The translations under genes were made by a program, and so were the position numbers. Below the pieces are notes generated by a model. The model had not been told where the DNA came from. It saw only the letters and a list, made by a program, of their open reading frames with translations, and made no database searches. DNA of 64,000 bases, taken from the UHGV virus genome UHGV-0091736; one strand, given 5' to 3'. How positions within the stretch are numbered: position 1 is the stretch's first letter; each line of letters starts with the position of its first letter. Source of the DNA: a virus. Positions 35,057-42,403 of the stretch are shown piece after piece.

Positions 35057-35495
35057 TTGAAGTCTCTCTCTTCACGGGGTATTGCGTAGTTCCCAACGTT
35101 CTCTGCCACCGCGCTATAGGTAGTGGCTTAGTATCCGACAATCAGACCTTCTTCACTCGGTGAAGCCCGGCCCCTCAATTTACTGTTAGTGAGGCGGTTA
35201 CAGTGTACCTGCTACCGATTCCGTGGTGGCGTCTTACTGCTTGTTGCTTACTGCTTACTACGGGATTCATATTACTATACAGGAAAACCCTGTCAATACC
35301 CTTTTTTCAAATTATTTTTCATCTCACTGTTTTCTAAAGGAATTTATTTTATTGTCAGTAGGACACCGGAAGGAATCAGGAGGTAAAAGAGCGGGAGCGC
35401 GTGATACATCACAGGAAACGGCTTGTAAAGCAGTAATAAGCGTCCTAAAACGCATCACAACGAGCTAAAAGGGAGTAAGGCATACAATCACCTTA

Positions 35496-36333: not shown

Positions 36334-37206
36334 TTACTTATTAGCCTTAATGCAGTTGGCTAGATTAACGTGAACAGTATAAACAGCATTATCAGCGTTA
36401 TTATAAACGGTAGTGGCGATCATCGACTCCTTAACCGGACCATAACTCACTAGATTGGTTACAGCTTTAACGTCTTCATAACGTTGTACAGTACCAAATG
36501 TCACCATATCCGCATCATTATCAGTGCGCTTAAGCACCAAATCATTGTTAGGCTGATTATCTAGTGTTTTAGACTGAAAGAGAACGCCTTCATTTGTTAC
36601 GTTGCTAAACTTCATTTTTAAGACAATAGTATTGCCGTCACTATCCGCACCGTTGCAAATCATCCAACCTTTATTGATGGAACTAGAGAAGACACTAGCC
36701 GCATCAGTTGCAGGAGCAGGACTAGCAACAGCCTTATCAGAAAGAGATGTGACCAGTGCACTAACACCGATCGCTGCAACCAGTGCATAACTTGCCAGAT
36801 TAACAGACTTCATAATCTTACTTGCAACAGTAGGCTTGATTGGCTGTTTCTTGTTTTTCTTGTTCCATGCTTCAACCATGACAGACAAGCGGGATAATTC
36901 AGCTTTCACATCACGGCATGACTCAGGCCAATCTTTCTGATTCCAGCTATCTAAATTTGCTTGAATGTAGCAATTAATAGCGTCCTGCATATCGGTAAAA
37001 CCGTTCTCTTTGAACGTGCTTTCATCTTCACACTGTAAAGCGTTCGCAGTAGAGTTAATGATCAAGCAAGCCAGCATTACAGAGTTTTTGAATCCTTTAC
37101 GTGCACTTTCGTTTTCCATCCACGCATCAGGACTACCAACGGTTAAGCCTAAAGATGAAAGGTTTTCGTTTGCTTTGTTCAAGTGGTTAATTGCTACTTT
37201 AGACAT
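36334..37206 (-). CDS. early protein with central transmembrane helix
   Basis: 290 aa; TM VNLASYALVAAIGVSALVTSL; first gene after strong sigma70-like promoter; SD AAGGAA. Confidence 0.55.
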   Translation of the reverse strand: MSKVAINHLNKANENLSSLGLTVGSPDAWMENESARKGFKNSVMLACLIINSTANALQCEDESTFKENGFTDMQDAINCYIQANLDSWNQKDWPESCRDVKAELSRLSVMVEAWNKKNKKQPIKPTVASKIMKSVNLASYALVAAIGVSALVTSLSDKAVASPAPATDAASVFSSSINKGWMICNGADSDGNTIVLKMKFSNVTNEGVLFQSKTLDNQPNNDLVLKRTDNDADMVTFGTVQRYEDVKAVTNLVSYGPVKESMIATTVYNNADNAVYTVHVNLANCIKANK

Positions 37207-37250
37207 TTGATATTCCTTATGGTTGATGAAAACTACAAACTACAATCGCA

Positions 37251-37278
37251 ACTATATAATAAAGGAAAAGGCTGTCAA
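37251..37278 (-). promoter_or_regulatory. sigma70-type early promoter (leftward)
   Basis: minus-strand TTGACA, 16-nt spacer, TATAGT; about 45 nt upstream of ATG at 37206. Confidence 0.6.
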
Positions 37279-37421
37279 CCATTTATTTTCTAACTTTCCT
37301 ATAACTTACTGAAAACTAAAGGAATTTAATTTACTAAACTTTCCATACTCAGAGAATCAGCTTACTGGATATTGTTACTTTATAACACTAATCCTACGGG
37401 TAACAGACCAACAGACCAGGG

Positions 37422-37852
37422 CAAACGGGGAACACACAACCGCAGGATAGACCACGGGGAAACATAGCCAGATAGTGCGGTAGTAATATACCACTTAAAT
37501 AATTAGTTAACTATTAATAGCATTACTCAAACATCAAAGACCATTCGCTACGCTCATGCACGCTGAAAAAGAAAAGAATAAAAAGAATATAATAACCATC
37601 AAACATAATCTTTCCACTTAATTAATACATATATCATTATTGCACTCATAATAACAACTATTGAAACTATTTACACTCAAACTATGGGGGATGGGATGGT
37701 TACTATACGGTATTATTAGACCTGTTATTATCACGCCTTAACAGAGTCTAGCCTTTCATCCACTCAGTAAAGGGGAACTAAATAAACGGGTAGGTAATGT
37801 AATAGATGACATATACGGGGAAAGAATAACGGGGAGTAGGCACGGGGAAGGT
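37422..37852. repeat. ACGGGGAA direct-repeat copies in divergent intergenic region
   Basis: AACGGGGAAC 37422, CACGGGGAAA 37452, TACGGGGAAA 37813, AACGGGGAGT 37827, CACGGGGAAG 37840. Confidence 0.55.
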
Positions 37853-38000
37853 TAGAACGTGGGAGGAGGTGTAAAGGCATTGCCAATAACCCTTTTTTAA
37901 ATGAGGACTCCCCCTTTTTAGGAATTCGTCGCAGAGCGCCTAGCCCCACTCGGTCAAATCAGAATTTTAAACTCTTATATATAAGGTTGAAAGAGAACTT

Positions 38001-38165
38001 ATGTGGAAAATTAAGTTAATCATTAAGCAATTCAAATGTGATCATGAGTACTATCGGATACGCAAAGCTTACGGGGATGAAAGAGTTCACTCCCTTTATA
38101 AGTCCACTTGGAGATGTAGTGAATGTGGTAAGCTTAAGCACAGCACATGGATGGATAGGCCTTAA
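38001..38165 (+). CDS. small zinc-ribbon protein (below track cutoff)
   Basis: 54 aa MWKIKLIIKQFKCDHEYY...RCSECGKLKH; alternative to track ORF 38038-38241. Confidence 0.3.
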   Translation: MWKIKLIIKQFKCDHEYYRIRKAYGDERVHSLYKSTWRCSECGKLKHSTWMDRP

Positions 38166-38375
38166 CGTGACATGGCCTTTATGGGGGTGCCTTAATGTGA
38201 AGTCCCTTTTATGTTTTAACTTTTATCAGAGGGATGTATGACTGAAGATGAATATGGTAGCTTCTCTGAAGAAGACTACGAAAATGAATACAGGTATACT
38301 CACGGGTGTTAATGTGAGGTGGCCTTTACGGGTTAGATAGCCATCAAAGATGACGATATGACTAGCCCTTTATAC
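38161..38375 (+). promoter_or_regulatory. four copies of a 25-nt promoter-like repeat
   Basis: CTTAACGTGACATGGCCTTTATGGG 38161; CTTAATGTGAAGTCCCTTTTATG 38191; GTTAATGTGAGGTGGCCTTTACGGG 38308; ATATGACTAGCCCTTTATAC 38356. Confidence 0.45.
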
Positions 38376-38395
38376 TTTACTCAGAGGACAAAAGT

Positions 38396-38506
38396 ATGGG
38401 ATGGTTCCTGTTGGTTTTAATTCTTTTTACCACTGTTCCTATTGTTGCTGTGTTTGGTTGCATAGCCGCTGACTTATTAGGAATAAAGAAAGGAGATGAT
38501 TTATGA
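38396..38506 (+). CDS. small hydrophobic single-helix peptide
   Basis: 36 aa MGWFLLVLILFTTVPIVAVFGCIAADLL...; SD GAGGA; ATGA overlap with next gene. Confidence 0.35.
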   Translation: MGWFLLVLILFTTVPIVAVFGCIAADLLGIKKGDDL

Positions 38507-38859
38507 GGTTGGATTTAAGAGGTTGTACTAGGTCAGTTATATTGTTCAGAGGTTATGCTATCAAGATTCCTACTTTTAAATCTTGGAAGCTTTTCTTAAA
38601 AGGGATTCTTGCTAATCTACAAGAGAGACATTTCTCTGAGATGAAAGACCCCAACCTTTGTCCTGTAGTCTTCTCTGATAAGTTAGGTTTCTTAGTAATA
38701 ATGAAGAGGTGTAAAGAGGTTGAGCACATAGGATTGTGGATGGCAGAGATTCACACCTTGAAAGGTTCCCTTCCTAAAGAATTTTACCTGTCAGATCTTA
38801 AGCCAGAAAATTATGGATACCTAGGCGGGCGGTTGGTTAAATTAGATTATGGAGATTGA
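38503..38859 (+). CDS. minimal protein-kinase-like protein (T7 gp0.7-like catalytic motifs)
   Basis: 118 aa; YAIKIPTFK (VAIK-like), DLKPEN catalytic loop, KLDYGD (DFG-like); strong SD AAAGGAGA. Confidence 0.45.
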   Translation: MRLDLRGCTRSVILFRGYAIKIPTFKSWKLFLKGILANLQERHFSEMKDPNLCPVVFSDKLGFLVIMKRCKEVEHIGLWMAEIHTLKGSLPKEFYLSDLKPENYGYLGGRLVKLDYGD

Positions 38860-39516: not shown

Positions 39517-39544
39517 GTTGTTGATAATGTAGAAGGAGTATAAA

Positions 39545-40018
39545 ATGTTTGGAGAAAACGGAGAACTCACGCCTGCACAGGTAGCTGAGATTACAGGAAG
39601 ATTACCCGGAGTAACGGAAGAACTTGAAGGCCGTGGTATGAACCCAAGCAATGGGAAGTTTCAAAAGGGGAATAAATTCGGACGACCCAAAGGTAGTAGA
39701 GGTAAACTGACACAATTAATGTTGGACCGTGTTGCTGCAAGTCATTTGTCTCCTGATGAAGTGTTAATTCAAATTTACGAAGATCCTAATATTCCACCTG
39801 ATCTTAGATTCAAGGCTGCATCAAAAGTTGCAGATCTGGTATATCCTAAGGCGGCCTCCGTTGAAGTTAAGATTGAGGAAGAGAATGTAATCAACGAAGA
39901 ATCATTGAATGCACAAATCAAGGACTTCTTGACTGGAGCACTTGGTATCGACGTTATGCCTCCAGAAGAAGACAACTCTGAGGACGCTGAAAAGGGGGAG
40001 GAAGCGGACGAGAGTTAA
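39545..40018 (+). CDS. putative small terminase subunit (positional call)
   Basis: 157 aa; basic GRPKGSRG segment, acidic C-terminus; immediately upstream of large terminase; SD AGGAGT. Confidence 0.35.
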   Translation: MFGENGELTPAQVAEITGRLPGVTEELEGRGMNPSNGKFQKGNKFGRPKGSRGKLTQLMLDRVAASHLSPDEVLIQIYEDPNIPPDLRFKAASKVADLVYPKAASVEVKIEEENVINEESLNAQIKDFLTGALGIDVMPPEEDNSEDAEKGEEADES

Positions 40019-40087: not shown

Positions 40088-40699
40088 ATGTCACTAGATA
40101 AACAAATTTATGAAGCTCTAACTGGTAACAATCTTAGTGTAGATGAAAAGAAAGCACTATTGAATATGTTGAAAGAGCGTGACCAATGGAGGAAGTATAA
40201 TAGGATTTTGTCTTTCAAGGCGTATGACTTCCAAAAGAAATTTTATGCAGCAGGATTGAAGCATAGGTTCAGGTTTCTCTGTGCGGCTAACCGAGTTGGG
40301 AAAAGTTACAGTGAAGCGTACGAATTCGCATGCCACGTTACCGGAAGATATCCAACATGGTGGACCGGTCATAAGTTTAAGAGGCCAATACTTGCGTGGG
40401 CTGTAGGGATTACAGGGGACTCAACAAGGAAAGTATTGCAAAAAGAATTATTTGGTACACCAATTGGAAAGGACACTAATCTGCTAGGTACTGGAGTTAT
40501 TCCACGAGATGCAATAGTAATAGATACTATAGAAAGGGATGGTAATAAGCTACAGATAGTACAGATTAAGCACCAGAATGAAAGGGGTGAGTTTGATGGA
40601 TTAAGTACGTTAGAATTTCGATCAACACAACAGGGTGAACATACACTGATGGGTGCTACTGTTGATTATATATGGCTGGATGAAGAGGATTGTATATAA
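40088..40699 (+). CDS. terminase large subunit, 5' exon (ATPase Walker A/B)
   Basis: Walker A AANRVGKS; Walker B YIWLDEE; ORF stops 5 codons after DEE. Confidence 0.8.
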   Translation: MSLDKQIYEALTGNNLSVDEKKALLNMLKERDQWRKYNRILSFKAYDFQKKFYAAGLKHRFRFLCAANRVGKSYSEAYEFACHVTGRYPTWWTGHKFKRPILAWAVGITGDSTRKVLQKELFGTPIGKDTNLLGTGVIPRDAIVIDTIERDGNKLQIVQIKHQNERGEFDGLSTLEFRSTQQGEHTLMGATVDYIWLDEEDCI

Positions 40700-41479
40700 C
40701 ATAGCTAGAAGTGTTGGTCCTCTATAAACTCGGTGAATTGCTGGAACCTCTGACCCTTAAGTGGAAGACAATCAGCAGCGAAGATAATGTATAACTTACT
40801 CATGATACATTATAACGTTCAACGACTATCGAAAGCATAGCCCGTATGGGTGAAGAAGCAAGTAGAGTAGATACCAAGTGGTATCGAAGTGCCGAGCAAA
40901 ACTAAGGAGTGATACATTGGGTAGACCTAACAAATCATTAGATTCAACCAAAACATGTTCAGTGTGCTCTGTAACAAAAGACATAGAATCTTTTGCAATA
41001 AGAACAAGAGCAATATCCACTGGAGAGGTTAGAATCTACCGTAAGTCTCAATGCAAAGAGTGCATGGCTGAGATGAGAAGGGATTGGGGTAAGAATAATC
41101 CAGATAAGATTCGTGAGAATAATAATTCTCCAAATAAGAGAGCTTGCGATAATGCAAGACGGGCTGGATTAGAAACTGCTTCTATTATCAGAGATGATGA
41201 GTATAATAAATTTGTTATGGAAGAAATGTATGAACTTCGAAATCTTAGAACAAAGGAAACTGGATTTCAATGGCATGTAGATCACATAATCCCTTTAAAA
41301 GGTAATAACGTATGTGGTTTTCATGTCTGGTATAACTTGCAGGTAGTTCCTGCTGTTTTCAACCTATCTAAGAGTAATAGTTTTGATGATATAGTCTGCT
41401 CTGCATGGAAACATGCAGCTGGAGAAATCCGGGATGAGATTAACGATCTTGTCTGAACAACACGCCATATGAGTCTATG
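40691..41479 (+). mobile_element. putative group I-type intron splitting the large terminase gene; carries HNH ORF
   Basis: ATPase motifs resume at AIFAQCV...TATPENG in 41477 ORF; no SD before exon 2; insert has AAACTCGGTGAA block shared with the polymerase and helicase insertions. Confidence 0.6.
40878..41456 (+). CDS. HNH homing endonuclease (intron-encoded; start may be TTG at 40917)
   Basis: Zn-finger CSVCS...CKEC plus HNH core [38 protein letters not shown]. Confidence 0.7.
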
Positions 41480-42403
41480 GCTATATTCGCACAGTGCGTC
41501 ACACGTACACTCACAACTAAAGGTCTAGTTACAATTACAGCTACACCAGAGAACGGTTTAACTGAACTGGTAGATAAATTTATGAAAGGTGAAGGGGATG
41601 AGAACACAGGTTCTCTATATTTCCAGAATGCTTCTTGGTGGGATGCTCATGCAGACCTAGGTGGACATATCACTGACCAAGATATAAAAGATATGACTGA
41701 AGGTATTCCAGCGTGGCAGTTAGAGATGCGTTCGAAAGGTATGCCATTGTTAGGAAGTGGTTTGATATATGATGTATCGGATGACACAATTAAATGTGAA
41801 CCATTCGAAATTCCTGATACGTGGAAACGTGTCTGTGCAATTGATATTGGTATTGATCACCCAACTGCTGCTGTTTGGACAGCTTACGATGCAAACACGG
41901 ATACTGTCTATGTTTACGACTCATATAAAGAAGGTGGCTTTACTCCAGTGTATCATGCTCCAGCTATTAATGGTCGTGGTCAGTGGATTCCTGTCATCCT
42001 ACCGCATGATGCGGACAATATTGAGAAAGGTAGTGGATCATCTGTTGCTCAATTCTATAAGAATGCAGGAGTTAATGTACAGAGTGAGACCTTCTACAAC
42101 AAAATTGGAATGGATGGTAAAAAGAACTTCTTTGTAGAACCCGGAATCACAGATATCCGAGAAAGAATGATGAGTGGACGCTTTAAAATCTTTAACACAG
42201 CTGCTAACGCTAAGCTATTCGAAGAGAAAGCTAGATATCACCGCAAGGTTGGTAAGATTATTAAAGAACATGATGACTTAATGGATGCAATGCGCTATTC
42301 AGCGTGCTCTGTTACACATCGTGGTCGCTCTAAGCATGACGTTAGCTACGGAAGTGCTTCTCTGTATGAGGCAAACGTAAGCAGATGGAATCAGAGTTAC
42401 TAA
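41477..42403 (+). CDS. terminase large subunit, 3' exon (ATPase motif III and nuclease domain)
   Basis: TATPENG coupling motif; CAIDIGIDHPTAAVWTAYD...VYVYDSY nuclease-type acidic motifs. Confidence 0.8.
   Translation: MAIFAQCVTRTLTTKGLVTITATPENGLTELVDKFMKGEGDENTGSLYFQNASWWDAHADLGGHITDQDIKDMTEGIPAWQLEMRSKGMPLLGSGLIYDVSDDTIKCEPFEIPDTWKRVCAIDIGIDHPTAAVWTAYDANTDTVYVYDSYKEGGFTPVYHAPAINGRGQWIPVILPHDADNIEKGSGSSVAQFYKNAGVNVQSETFYNKIGMDGKKNFFVEPGITDIRERMMSGRFKIFNTAANAKLFEEKARYHRKVGKIIKEHDDLMDAMRYSACSVTHRGRSKHDVSYGSASLYEANVSRWNQSY

What the first reader, a model, noticed from the sequence alone, without database searches (positions are those of the whole stretch)
37207..38000. AT-rich divergent control region with ACGGGGAA repeats and a consensus sigma70 promoter
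Between the leftward early operon (ATG 37206) and the first rightward ORFs lies 0.8 kb with a near-consensus sigma70 promoter for the leftward operon (TTGACA, 16 nt, TATAGT) and five copies of an (A/C)ACGGGGA(A/G) element in two clusters. This could be the early transcription control centre, an origin, or lie near a physical genome end.
Basis: seen in the sequence. Interest (0 to 1): 0.5.

Follow-up and report, generated by a model that had tools for sequence, protein, structure and literature searches.

The report
Phage genome end with terminal repeat
This 0.8 kb gap is the place where the two ends of a phiEco32-like coliphage genome were joined by the assembly: it holds the already published 192-193 bp terminal repeat and the already published early promoter, so it is largely ordinary, apart from an undescribed one-stranded array of short G-rich repeats around the repeat.

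Summary
ORFs end at 37206 (-) and start at 38001 (+). TTGACA-16-TATAGT lies at 37278..37251 (-). ACGGGGA occurs five times on the + strand within 430 bp, against at most two in 500 simulations.

The window is a phiEco32-like Kuravirus assembled across its ends. Position 1 of phiEco32 maps to window 37750, and its mapped 193-bp direct terminal repeat corresponds to 37750-37941. The second repeat cluster therefore lies inside the terminal repeat. The first lies in the non-coding right end of the genome.

The promoter is the one already listed upstream of SU10 CDS125 (phiEco32 gene 128). In virion DNA the two "divergent" promoters sit about 77 kb apart, each facing inward from one end.

Details I did not find in the papers I could read:
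- Both repeat boundaries are cuts in a shared RGNGNCT|AGSC motif.
- The repeats belong to a strictly + strand AYGGG array of 14 sites in 1 kb, with about 14.5-bp phasing inside the repeat.
- Divergent lineages change the motif in both clusters together.

I infer that the repeats are polar packaging and end-processing signals. A replication origin is not excluded. Verdict: already known feature, low interest.

The parts
36334..37206 (-). First gene of the leftward early operon, the homologue of phiEco32 gene 128 (290 aa, function unknown)
   Evidence: ORF list. Matches phi32_128 at the right end of EU330206. PHROG 36409, E 1.6e-198, unknown function. No Pfam hit.
37251..37278 (-). Sigma70 early promoter (P128): -35 TTGACA at 37278-37273, 16-nt spacer, -10 TATAGT at 37256-37251. 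An A/T-rich UP-like stretch lies at 37279-37300, and the Shine-Dalgarno AAGGA is the complement of 37214-37218.
   Evidence: Promoter scan, 11/12. One of 5 sites with at least 11/12 in 64 kb, against 1.8 expected. Same sequence as the SU10 'upstream of CDS125' promoter. Conserved in phiEco32, EK5, SGF2, Bas87 and EP335.
37396..37460 (+). Repeat cluster 1 in the unique right end: ACGGGTA at 37396, ACGGGGA at 37425 and ACGGGGA at 37454, spaced 29 and 29 bp
   Evidence: Position and spacing are conserved in phiEco32, EK5, SGF2, PE006, NJ01, 172-1 and XT32. The core changes to ATGGGTA in Bas87, MLP3 and TH34, and to ACGGGAA in Bas92 and Bas93; SU7 also carries ATGGGTA, read from its sequence.
37439..37481 (.). 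Invariant inverted repeat, ACCGCA (37439-37444) and TGCGGT (37476-37481), enclosing the third cluster-1 repeat
   Evidence: The arms are invariant in all 10 aligned relatives even where 60-70 bp are inserted between them. The minus-strand RNA fold gives z = -1.84, with 8 of 200 shuffles as good. The arms never vary, so there is no covariation to test.
37480..37680 (.). AT-rich core (26% GC). It holds the invariant block ACGCTGAAAAAGAAAAGAATAAA (from 37560), a variable number of A-rich units, and two copies of CCACTTAA(A/T)TAAT (37491 and 37614).
   Evidence: Second-lowest GC in the window. Repeat family D11. The conserved blocks, and parallel changes of both CCACTTAA copies in Bas87 and EP335, are visible in the alignment.
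37678..37690 (+). Invariant block CAAACTATGGGGG, about 60 bp before the left cut site
   Evidence: ACTATGGGG is identical in all 10 relatives.
37748..37751 (.). Left boundary cut site, CT|AG (cut between 37749 and 37750), within ACAGAGTCT|AGCCTTTC
   Evidence: phiEco32 nucleotide 1 (AGCCTTTC...) maps to 37750. Several records start or end at this point. The motif is conserved in 12 of the 14 relatives scored; EP335 and KBNP1711 read CT|GGCC.
37750..37941 (.). Direct terminal repeat, 192 bp, present once here because the assembly collapsed the two copies
   Evidence: The 193 bp at the two ends of EU330206 are identical. A DTR is annotated in YF01. 192-193 bp DTRs are reported in 30 relatives (PMC9965538). 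The distance from CT|AG to CT|AG is 192 bp here.
37769..37863 (+). Repeat cluster 2 inside the terminal repeat: AAAGGGGAA at 37769, ACGGGTA at 37786, ACGGGGA at 37815, 37829 and 37842, and ACGTGGG at 37857. The sites from 37786 on lie at offsets +36, +65, +79, +92 and +107 from the repeat start, a period of about 14.5 bp.
   Evidence: The offsets are identical across the eight ACGGGGA-type phages, apart from +107/+108 for the last site, which not all of them keep. EP335 and KBNP1711 fill the +50 slot.
37890..37920 (.). Most conserved box of the terminal repeat: CCCTTTTTTA, then AATGAGGACTCCCCCTTTTTA. It contains the interrupted palindrome GGA-C-TCC and two T-runs 22 bp apart.
   Evidence: Invariant in the alignment. 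Present in 92 phage records, at record positions 142-176 where records start at the repeat. Described as the 'conserved region ~130-170' and as the CCCTTTTTTA direct repeat.
37940..37943 (.). Right boundary cut site, CT|AG (cut between 37941 and 37942), within GAGCGCCT|AGCCCCAC
   Evidence: The phiEco32, YF01 and SU10 records end 17 nt beyond the last aligned base, which corresponds to 37941. The IMEP8 record ends exactly there. It shares a consensus with the left site.
37951..37987 (+). Near-invariant upstream block of gene 1, a weak sigma70-like promoter: GTCAAA (37953-37958), 17-nt spacer, TATATA (37976-37981), and the palindrome CTTATATATAAG
   Evidence: 97% and 91% column identity in the 20-bp bins at 37947 and 37967. 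Listed for SU10 as 'potential sigma-70 promoter'. Not picked up by the consensus scan.
38001..38165 (+). First rightward gene, the homologue of phiEco32 gene 1 (54 aa). It contains a further conserved ACGGGGA at 38071.
   Evidence: PHROG 7696, unknown function.
39545..40018 (+). Candidate small terminase subunit, the homologue of phiEco32 gene 6. It is the proposed reader of the repeats (inference).
   Evidence: Lies directly upstream of the large terminase gene. Its profile hits the PaP3-type small terminase 7joq_I at E 0.0019. The same assignment was made for YF01 gp3 by HHpred. The AF2 model is weak (pLDDT 67) and Foldseek gives nothing significant.

Best explanation
The region is the joined-ends (concatemer-junction) region of a phiEco32-like Kuravirus genome.

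**Shown by homology to mapped genomes.** From left to right it holds:
1. [quoted passage not shown]
2. About 470 bp of conserved non-coding right-end DNA.
3. One collapsed copy of the 192-bp direct terminal repeat (37750-37941).
4. The upstream block of gene 1 at the left end.

In virion DNA the repeat is present at both ends, and the two promoters each face inward from one end.

**Inferred.**
- The terminase makes blunt cuts in the centre of two CT|AG sites that share the consensus RGNGNCT|AGSC. The repeat between them is duplicated during maturation, as in T7.
- The one-stranded AYGGG/ACGGGGA array and the invariant box AATGAGGACTCCCCCTTTTT are the polar cis signals that position the terminase and set the direction of packaging. 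The array runs in, and on both sides of, the repeat and is phased at about 14.5 bp inside it. The likely reader is the PaP3-like small subunit encoded at 39545-40018.
- P128, about 690 bp from the right end, would be the first promoter to enter the cell.

My confidence that the region is the terminus with the terminal repeat and the known promoter is about 0.9. My confidence that the repeats are packaging signals is about 0.4.
For: **Identity of the phage**
- 98 phage records match, all from Escherichia or Shigella phages. phiEco32 matches at about 91%.

**Terminal repeat**
- The left flank is phiEco32 gene 128 (right end) and the right flank is genes 1 onward (left end). phiEco32 nucleotide 1 maps to window 37750, and the two 193-bp ends of the phiEco32 record are identical.
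- A DTR is annotated in YF01.
- Independent records start or end at 37749/37750 (CHD5UKE1, KM01, Paul) and at 37941 (IMEP8, phiEco32, SU10, YF01).
- The conserved box sits at record positions 142-176 in ES17, YF01, SU10, IMEP8, IME267, Paul and LAMP.
- Termini were mapped by restriction analysis and primer walking (phiEco32), by nanopore reads (YF01) and by read drop-off indicating blunt ends (SU10).

**Promoter**
-.

**Cut sites**
- Both boundaries lie in a CT|AG with a shared flank in 12 of the 14 relatives scored; EP335 and KBNP1711 have CT|GG at the left boundary and 172-1 has CC|AG at the right.
- CTAG occurs only 148 times in the 64 kb.

**Repeats**
- Clustering is far beyond chance.
- All copies are on one strand.
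- Offsets within the repeat are fixed across genera.
- Lineages with ATGGGTA (Bas87, MLP3, TH34; SU7 by inspection) or ACGGGAA (Bas92, Bas93) carry the variant in both clusters.
- A distant 90-kb viral contig keeps the box preceded by ACGTGGGG repeats.

**Candidate reader**
- Small terminase candidate next to the large terminase gene.

**Precedent**
- In T3 and T7 the packaging-specificity sequences lie near the termini (PMC3276506).
Against: - The ends of this particular phage were not mapped. The repeat is assigned by homology only.
- Nothing shows that any protein binds the repeats.
- The small terminase candidate is 90-93% identical between ACGGGGA-type and ATGGGTA-type phages. It therefore does not co-vary with the variable motif positions.
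- The 'concerted' motif change could partly reflect inheritance of the whole terminal module as one unit, and it rests on only 3-4 independent lineages.
- The small terminase assignment is weak: E 0.0019, no significant fold match.
- Cluster 1 lies 290-350 bp from the nearest cut, which is far for a cleavage signal.
- The AT-rich block flanked by repeats also looks origin-like.
Confidence: 0.85

Rival explanations
1. Replication origin at the genome end. The AYGGG repeats act as iterons for a phage initiator, and the 26% GC A-tract block (37480-37680) between the repeat clusters is the unwinding element. This does not exclude a packaging role.
For: - Regularly spaced direct repeats.
- The second-lowest GC in the window lies between the clusters.
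- The cumulative GC-skew minimum falls at 37-38 kb.
- Blocks in the AT-rich core are conserved, and its number of A-rich units varies.
- From my own knowledge: T7 has secondary origins (phiOL, phiOR) next to its terminal repeat.
Against: - The skew switch coincides exactly with the switch from minus-strand to plus-strand genes, so it carries no independent information.
- No initiator-like gene lies next to the region. The neighbouring genes have unknown function.
- Half of the repeats lie inside the terminal repeat and in the tiny-gene region to its right. That is unusual for an iteron origin.
- The strict one-strand polarity over 1 kb fits a directional process.
Confidence: 0.2
2. Divergent early transcription control centre. 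The ACGGGGA elements are operators for a regulator that controls the leftward and rightward early promoters together.
For: - A strong sigma70 promoter faces left.
- An invariant promoter-like block faces right.
- The repeats lie between them in the assembled sequence.
Against: - On the linear virion DNA that enters the cell, the two promoters are at opposite ends of the genome.
- The repeats are 120-200 bp from P128, or 90-190 bp from the gene 1 block. None overlaps a -35 or -10 element.
- Cluster 2 is duplicated at both ends.
- The array continues into the coding region to 38396.
Confidence: 0.1
3. The region encodes something: a small protein (for example the 61-aa minus-strand ORF 37764-37949) or a structured small RNA. 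On this reading the repeats are a by-product.
For: - A stop-free minus-strand frame across the terminal repeat is present in several relatives.
- EK5 and a few other records annotate hypothetical proteins here.
- The minus strand of 37380-37500 folds somewhat better than shuffles, z = -1.84.
Against: - Variable sites are spread evenly over codon positions (29/24/24), and the window differs from all seven close relatives compared by a 1-nt indel.
- No PHROG match for any of the four small ORFs.
- Most records annotate nothing here.
- No Rfam match at E up to 1.
- The terminal repeat as RNA folds worse than shuffles, z = +1.68.
- The C-rich minus strand is naturally poor in stop codons.
Confidence: 0.04

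Closest known systems
phiEco32 / SU10 / YF01 (Kuravirus) genome termini: 193-bp direct terminal repeat plus the early promoter upstream of gene 128 (SU10 CDS125)
   Same: Orthologous sequence. Flanking genes, repeat start, repeat length (192 against 193 bp) and conserved box are the same. The promoter differs from the SU10 entry in its spacer.
   Different: About 9-14% nucleotide divergence. The window holds a single collapsed copy in a permuted assembly. The papers I could read mention the repeat, its conserved 130-170 region and the CCCTTTTTTA repeat. They do not mention the AYGGG array or the shared CT|AG cut motif. I could not read Savalia 2008 or Pavlova 2012.
T7/T3 concatemer junction: 160-230 bp terminal repeat, terminase gp18/gp19, host-polymerase early promoters just inside the leading end, and short repeat arrays in and beside the repeat
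   Same: - A short direct terminal repeat.
- Packaging from concatemers.
- Packaging specificity determined by DNA near the termini.
- Strong host promoters a few hundred bp from one end.
- From my own knowledge (Dunn and Studier 1983): one-stranded short repeats within and flanking the repeat.
   Different: - No sequence similarity.
- Early genes lie at the right end and run leftward.
- No phage RNA polymerase. A phage sigma factor is used instead.
- The terminase is of a different type: a T4-like large subunit and a PaP3-like small subunit candidate.
- The function of the T7 repeats is itself unproven.
Repeat-based terminase recognition sites (lambda cosB R sites for gpNu1; P1 pac hexamer repeats flanking the cut)
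   Same: Several short oriented repeats on both sides of a specific cleavage site, read by a small terminase. The comparison rests on my own knowledge.
   Different: Those systems give cohesive ends or headful packaging with one cut per initiation. Here two blunt cuts 192 bp apart would have to be made, and the DNA between them duplicated. Binding has not been tested.
Iteron-type replication origins
   Same: Phased direct repeats next to an AT-rich block.
   Different: No initiator gene identified. The repeats extend into the terminal repeat and into coding DNA. There is no functional evidence.

Membership tests
Kuravirus (phiEco32-like) genome terminus with a ~193-bp direct terminal repeat | Sequence homologous to the experimentally mapped terminal repeat, starting at the same nucleotide | tested here: met
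   phiEco32 nucleotides 1-504 align to window 37750-38253 at 91%. The box lies at record positions 142-176 in records that start at the repeat. The CT|AG to CT|AG distance is 192 bp.
Kuravirus (phiEco32-like) genome terminus with a ~193-bp direct terminal repeat | Right-end gene (gene 128) on one side and left-end genes (gene 1 onward, then terminase) on the other | tested here: met
Kuravirus (phiEco32-like) genome terminus with a ~193-bp direct terminal repeat | The repeat is physically present at both ends of this phage's virion DNA, with blunt ends | not testable with these tools
   Needs reads or virion DNA. Shown for phiEco32, YF01, Paul and SU10 only.
Sigma70 early promoter of phiEco32-like phages (upstream of gene 128 / SU10 CDS125) | -35 and -10 hexamers with a 16-18 nt spacer, orthologous to the published site | tested here: met
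   TTGACA-16-TATAGT. The SU10 S2 Table entry has the same hexamers and a near-identical spacer. Conserved in 6 relatives that carry gene 128.
Sigma70 early promoter of phiEco32-like phages (upstream of gene 128 / SU10 CDS125) | Mapped transcription start, early kinetics | not testable with these tools
   The primer-extension data of Pavlova 2012 could not be read. In the relative 7-11, two sigma70 promoters at the right end were validated.
T7/T3-type pac site at a concatemer junction | Small and large terminase subunits encoded by the phage | tested here: inconclusive
   The large subunit is clear, although split (Terminase_6N and Terminase_6C). The small subunit candidate scores only E 0.0019 to PaP3-type TerS, has no significant fold match, and was assigned the same way by HHpred in PMC9965538.
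T7/T3-type pac site at a concatemer junction | Specific DNA signals within or next to the repeat that are bound and cut by the terminase | not testable with these tools
   Only candidates were found: the twin CT|AG motif, the AYGGG array and the invariant box.
Iteron-type replication origin | Three or more regularly spaced direct repeats next to an AT-rich unwinding element | tested here: met
   Spacing of 29/29 bp and 14/13/15 bp. 26% GC at 37480-37680.
Iteron-type replication origin | A cognate initiator protein, and initiation of replication at the site | tested here: inconclusive
   No initiator-like family in the neighbouring ORFs. The GC-skew switch is confounded by gene orientation. Initiation itself is not testable here.
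phiEco32 gp36 (phage sigma) middle/late promoter, tAATGTAtA | Match to the 9-nt consensus with at most one mismatch | tested here: not met
   No site in 37207-38000. The nearest are 38371 (-) and the known gene 6 promoter at 39525 (+). TAATGTAAT at 37795 has two mismatches and is not conserved.
Known RNA families (Rfam 15) | Covariance-model match | tested here: not met
   0 matches at E up to 1 in 36800-38600, both strands.

The most novel reading that the evidence does not exclude
The one-stranded AYGGG array, the invariant GAGGACTCCCCC box and the twin RGNGNCT|AGSC sites together form the terminase recognition and cleavage code of Gordonclarkvirinae. The array has 14 sites over 1 kb, phased at about 14.5 bp inside the terminal repeat, and its motif variant changes together on both sides of the cut in different lineages. 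On this reading an oligomeric PaP3-like small terminase reads the phased array to set packaging polarity, and the large subunit makes two blunt cuts in CTAG centres 192 bp apart. This would be a sequence-level definition of a pac site for a terminal-repeat phage outside the T7 group.
Probability: 0.35. Interest if true: 0.4.

Novelty: already known. Interest (0 to 1): 0.2.

Why it matters
Mostly as a correction. An apparently divergent 'control region' in a phage assembly can simply be the two genome ends joined through a collapsed terminal repeat. Here the repeat, its conserved core, the early promoter and the likely small terminase are all already published for phiEco32, SU10 and YF01.

The residual value is practical and modest:
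- The twin CT|AG motif and the fixed repeat offsets allow the true ends to be placed in the many Kuravirus records deposited with arbitrary start points. They also allow dubious calls to be checked, for example the 53-bp repeat of SU7, which looks like about 249 bp by this rule.
- The polar AYGGG array gives concrete mutational targets for studying how terminal-repeat phages outside the T7 group recognise and cut their concatemers.

Tried and rejected
- **Rfam:** no family at E up to 1.
- **RNA or DNA structure in the terminal repeat:** it folds worse than shuffles, z = +1.68. The + strand of cluster 1 is unstructured, z = +0.56. The minus strand is only marginal, z = -1.84, and the CCGCA/TGCGG arms never vary, so covariation cannot be tested.
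- **Pairing of ACGGGGAGT (37829) with ACTCCCCCT in the box (repeat pair I11):** rejected. The ATGGGTA-type phages lack the left arm but keep the box.
- **Small ORFs in the gap:** non-coding by codon-position spread, a frameshifting indel and absence of PHROG hits.
- **Phage-sigma (gp36) promoter in the gap:** none with at most one mismatch.
- **Co-variation of the small terminase candidate with the motif variant:** not seen. The proteins are 90-93% identical across motif types.
- **Structure-based confirmation of the small terminase:** the AF2 model is of low confidence (pLDDT 67, pTM 0.34). The best Foldseek E-value is 0.88, with PaP3 TerS only at rank 9.
- **Wider relatives through the 15-nt box:**
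  - The IMG/VR scan gave 13 loci. Apart from the phiEco32 and KBNP1711 genomes themselves, only the 90-kb contig L016 was a relative.
  - The metagenome scan gave 120 loci, of which only L035, L080 and L100 were relatives. The rest were chance hits, plus a few GC-rich contigs that share 20-22 nt of the box without explanation.
  - L016 has no nucleotide match among deposited phages.
- **Phage 7-11:** its record does not start at a mapped end. It shows only an analogous G-rich repeat array followed by a CCCCCTTTT box.
- **Papers not held:** Savalia 2008 and Pavlova 2012. A search for 'pacB' mostly returned PacBio papers.
Full report
**1. What is in the sequence**

The gap is real. ORF 36334..37206 lies on the minus strand and ORF 38001..38165 on the plus strand, and they bound 794 bp.

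The promoter is as described. TTGACA lies at 37278-37273, followed by a 16-nt spacer and TATAGT at 37256-37251, on the minus strand. Only five sites in the 64 kb reach 11 of 12 consensus positions, against 1.8 expected from Markov simulations. Two of the others (34700 and 35006), together with a 10/12 site at 35296, form a leftward cluster further into the early operon.

ACGGGGA occurs seven times in the window counting both strands. Five of these are on the + strand at 37425, 37454, 37815, 37829 and 37842. A same-strand cluster of five within 450 bp never arose in 500 simulations, where the maximum was two.

'AT-rich' is only partly apt. The gap is 36.5% GC against 42.2% overall, and the stretch 37480-37680 is 26% GC. 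The part that carries the second cluster is 45.8% GC.

**2. What the window is**

Megablast finds 98 phage records, all from Escherichia or Shigella phages of the phiEco32 group (Gordonclarkvirinae, mostly Kuravirus). EK5 is the closest at 91%, and phiEco32 matches at about 91%.

The left flank is the homologue of phiEco32 gene 128, the last gene at the right end of that linear genome. The right flank is genes 1 onward, at its left end.

The first and last 193 bp of the phiEco32 record are identical. Its nucleotide 1 aligns to window 37750. The window is therefore an assembly that runs through the genome ends with the two terminal-repeat copies collapsed into one.

**3. The terminal repeat and its boundaries**

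Independent records support both boundaries.
- CHD5UKE1 ends, and KM01 and Paul start or end, at the equivalent of 37749/37750.
- phiEco32, SU10 and YF01 end, by extrapolating 17 nt beyond the last aligned base, at 37941. IMEP8 ends exactly there.
- The conserved box (37890 onward) sits at record positions 142-176 in ES17, YF01, SU10, IMEP8, IME267, Paul and LAMP, several of which annotate a terminal repeat there. YF01 annotates its 193-bp repeat explicitly.

The literature agrees.
- The phiEco32 repeat was mapped by restriction profiling, primer walking and subcloning.
- The YF01 repeat was mapped from full-length nanopore reads.
- 192-193 bp repeats were recognised in 30 relatives, with a highly conserved region at about positions 130-170 (PMC9965538).
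- SU10 reads drop off sharply at the last nucleotide of each repeat, indicating blunt ends (PMC4281155).

In the window the repeat is 37750-37941, which is 192 bp. The window has one base fewer than its relatives.

**4. A shared cut-site motif**

I did not find this point in the papers I could read.

In 12 of the 14 relatives scored both boundaries fall in the centre of a CTAG, with similar flanks. EP335 and KBNP1711 read CT|GGCC at the left boundary, and 172-1 reads CC|AG at the right.
- Left boundary: ACAGTGCT|AGCCTTTC (ACAGAGTCT|AGCC in the window).
- Right boundary: GAGCGCCT|AGCCCCAC.
- Consensus: about RGNGNCT|AGSC.

CTAG occurs 148 times in the 64 kb, against about 238 expected from base composition. 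Two mapped ends both landing on CTAG centres is therefore unlikely by chance.

A blunt cut in the middle of a palindromic core fits the blunt ends reported for SU10. That the same nuclease, the large terminase, makes both cuts is an inference.

**5. The promoter is already published**

The SU10 S2 Table lists 'ttgacagccttttcctttaatatatagtttgcgagtg, upstream of CDS125'. This has the same hexamers as the window site and differs by only a few bases in the spacer and downstream. The SU10 text says phiEco32 has the same single promoter upstream of its last gene.

The site is conserved in every aligned relative that carries gene 128. In the more distant phage 7-11, two sigma70 promoters at the very right end were validated by primer extension and drive leftward early transcription (PMC8948821).

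The near-invariant block upstream of gene 1 (37951-37987) is listed for SU10 as a 'potential sigma-70 promoter'. Its hexamers are weak, and the consensus scan did not call it.

**6. Why 'divergent control region' is misleading**

On the linear DNA that enters the cell, P128 lies about 690 bp from the right end, and the gene 1 block lies just inside the left terminal repeat. Each faces inward, with roughly 77 kb between them. They are neighbours only in concatemers or in the collapsed assembly.

The cumulative GC-skew minimum at 37-38 kb coincides with the switch from minus-strand to plus-strand genes. It is therefore no independent sign of an origin.

**7. Anatomy of the repeats**

Within the terminal repeat the sites lie at fixed offsets from the repeat start: +36 (ACGGGTA), +65, +79 and +92 (ACGGGGA), and +107 (ACGTGGG). 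A related AAAGGGGAA lies near +20.
- The successive spacings are 29, 14, 13 and 15 bp, a period of about 14.5 bp.
- These offsets are the same in phiEco32, EK5, SGF2, NJ01, 172-1, PE006 and XT32, apart from +107/+108 for the last site, which not all of them keep.
- EP335 and KBNP1711 also fill the +50 slot.

Cluster 1 lies in the unique right end at -354, -325 and -296, spaced 29 and 29 bp.

The core A-Y-G-G-G is kept in all lineages, but the following bases differ by lineage, and they differ in both clusters together.
- ACGGGGA in the phiEco32 type.
- ACGGGAA in Bas92 and Bas93.
- ATGGGTA in Bas87, MLP3, TH34 and SU7.

Counting the core, A[CT]GGG occurs 14 times on the + strand between 37396 and 38396 and never on the - strand between 37000 and 38700. 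The background is 1.2 per kb per strand, and 5 is the most in any 1-kb window outside this region. The array therefore extends about 350 bp to the left of the repeat and about 450 bp to its right, where it runs through the tiny rightward ORFs.

A 90-kb viral contig shares only one detectable gene with the window in the 12 kb fetched. It still has the box AAATGAGGACTCCCCCTTTT 75 nt from its end, preceded by ACGTGGGG repeats. Phage 7-11 has an analogous G-rich array followed by a CCCCCTTTT box.

**8. Other conserved non-coding blocks between P128 and the repeat**
- The inverted repeat ACCGCA/TGCGGT (37439-37444 and 37476-37481). It is kept even where 60-70 bp are inserted between the arms.
- Two copies of CCACTTAA(A/T)TAAT (37491 and 37614). 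They change in parallel in Bas87 and EP335.
- ACGCTGAAAAAGAAAAGAATAAA (from 37560), followed by a variable number of A-rich units.
- CAAACTATGGGGG (37678-37690).

Their roles are unknown.

**9. What the region is not**
- **Not a known RNA family.** Rfam gives nothing.
- **Not strongly structured.** The terminal repeat as RNA folds worse than shuffles. The cluster 1 region is marginal on the minus strand only.
- **Not coding.** The 61-aa minus-strand ORF in the repeat and the other small ORFs have no PHROG match. Variable sites are spread evenly over codon positions (29/24/24). The window differs from all seven close relatives compared by a 1-nt indel.
- **No phage-sigma promoter.** No site matching TAATGTATA with at most one mismatch lies in the gap. 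The known gene 6 late promoter is at 39525.

**10. Mechanism**

Shown, by homology to mapped genomes:
- This is the genome terminus, with a short direct terminal repeat.
- A host-type early promoter lies just inside the right end.

Inferred:
- Concatemers carry one repeat copy between genomes. The terminase cuts at the two CT|AG sites, and the repeat is duplicated during maturation. This is the T7 model that the SU10 and YF01 authors also invoke.
- The strictly polar, phased AYGGG array and the invariant box are the best candidates for the signals that position the terminase and set packaging direction. The reasons are:
  - they occur only at the terminus;
  - they are all on one strand;
  - they keep fixed offsets from the cut;
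  - they change together in both clusters.
- In T3 and T7, packaging specificity likewise maps to DNA near the termini and involves the terminase (PMC3276506).

The likely reader is the protein encoded at 39545-40018, directly upstream of the large terminase gene.
- Its family profile hits the PaP3-type small terminase (7joq_I, E 0.0019).
- The YF01 authors reached the same assignment by HHpred.
- The structural check was inconclusive: pLDDT 67, and no significant Foldseek match.
- Against a simple read-out model, this protein is 90-93% identical in ACGGGGA-type and ATGGGTA-type phages. At most it reads the invariant AYGGG core, or another factor reads the variable positions.

I put the packaging-signal reading at about 0.4. 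I put a replication-origin role for the repeats plus the AT-rich block at about 0.2, and the two are not mutually exclusive.

**11. Comparison with what is known, and verdict**

The terminal repeat, its conserved core, the CCCTTTTTTA repeat, the early promoter and the putative small terminase are all published for phiEco32, SU10 and YF01. As a feature this is already known, and the window is simply another member of the group.

Three details were not mentioned in the papers I could read:
- the twin CT|AG cut motif;
- the fixed offsets and 14.5-bp phasing of the repeats;
- the 1-kb one-stranded AYGGG zone, with lineage-specific variants that change together.

I could not read Savalia 2008 or Pavlova 2012, so prior description there cannot be excluded.

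Interest is low (0.2). The most novel reading is that these elements form the pac code of this phage group. It has moderate probability and moderate interest.

Noticed in passing
window 40088-42403: The large terminase gene is split. The ATPase part is 40088-40699 (Terminase_6N) and the nuclease part is 41477-42403 (Terminase_6C). An HNH/endonuclease VII-like ORF lies between them at 40878-41456, and a perfect phage-sigma promoter motif TAATGTATA lies at 40785 just upstream of it. phiEco32 has one uninterrupted gene 7. This is probably a homing-endonuclease or intron insertion.
   Followed up: partly
window 38162-38335: Three copies of TTAAYGTGA...GGCCTTTAYGGG (38162, 38192, 38309) lie between and within the tiny rightward ORFs. 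Similar units occur at the SU7 left end. Each ends in an AYGGG core, so they may be the right-hand continuation of the terminal array.
   Followed up: partly
L008/L010 (SU7, MZ342906), left end 1-250: The deposited 53-bp terminal repeat of SU7, which its authors flagged as doubtful, looks under-called. The record starts at the canonical AGCCTTTC. In SU7's left-end sequence the right-hand GGCT|AGGTCC site lies about 249 bp in (my reading); the CT|AG-to-CT|AG distance was computed as 249 bp for its closest relatives Bas87 and MLP3 (SU7 itself was not scored there).
   Followed up: partly
window 34700, 35006, 35296 (minus strand): A cluster of three strong leftward sigma70 sites (11/12, 11/12 and 10/12). 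It corresponds to the three early promoters listed between SU10 CDS120 and CDS121.
   Followed up: no
window 37485-37493 (minus strand): TGGTATATT reads as an extended -10 element pointing left, about 210 bp upstream of P128. It is followed on that strand by the ACCGCA...TGCGGT hairpin and a U-rich stretch, which the scan called terminator-like (37457..37440). It is only partly conserved in relatives.
   Followed up: partly
L058, L074, L082, L128, L130 (metagenome contigs): GC-rich, non-phage-looking contigs share 20-22 nt of the box (AAATGAGGACTCCCCCTTTT). In three of them it lies about 240 bp after a tRNA 3' end. That is more than the roughly 0.1 extended matches expected among 120 chance hits to the 15-mer. 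Unexplained.
   Followed up: no
L016 1-900 and L080 (viral and metagenome contigs): A distant lineage keeps the box and a gene-1-type upstream block (GAAATTAAAAACCTTATATACA) at a contig end, preceded by G-rich repeats. L016 is a 90-kb contig with no nucleotide match among deposited phages, and it also has three tandem copies of ACATAACTTTACAAAACTTG containing TTGACA.
   Followed up: partly
window 38071: A sixth + strand ACGGGGA lies inside gene 1. It is conserved at the same place in phiEco32, EK5, SGF2, NJ01 and 172-1.
   Followed up: no
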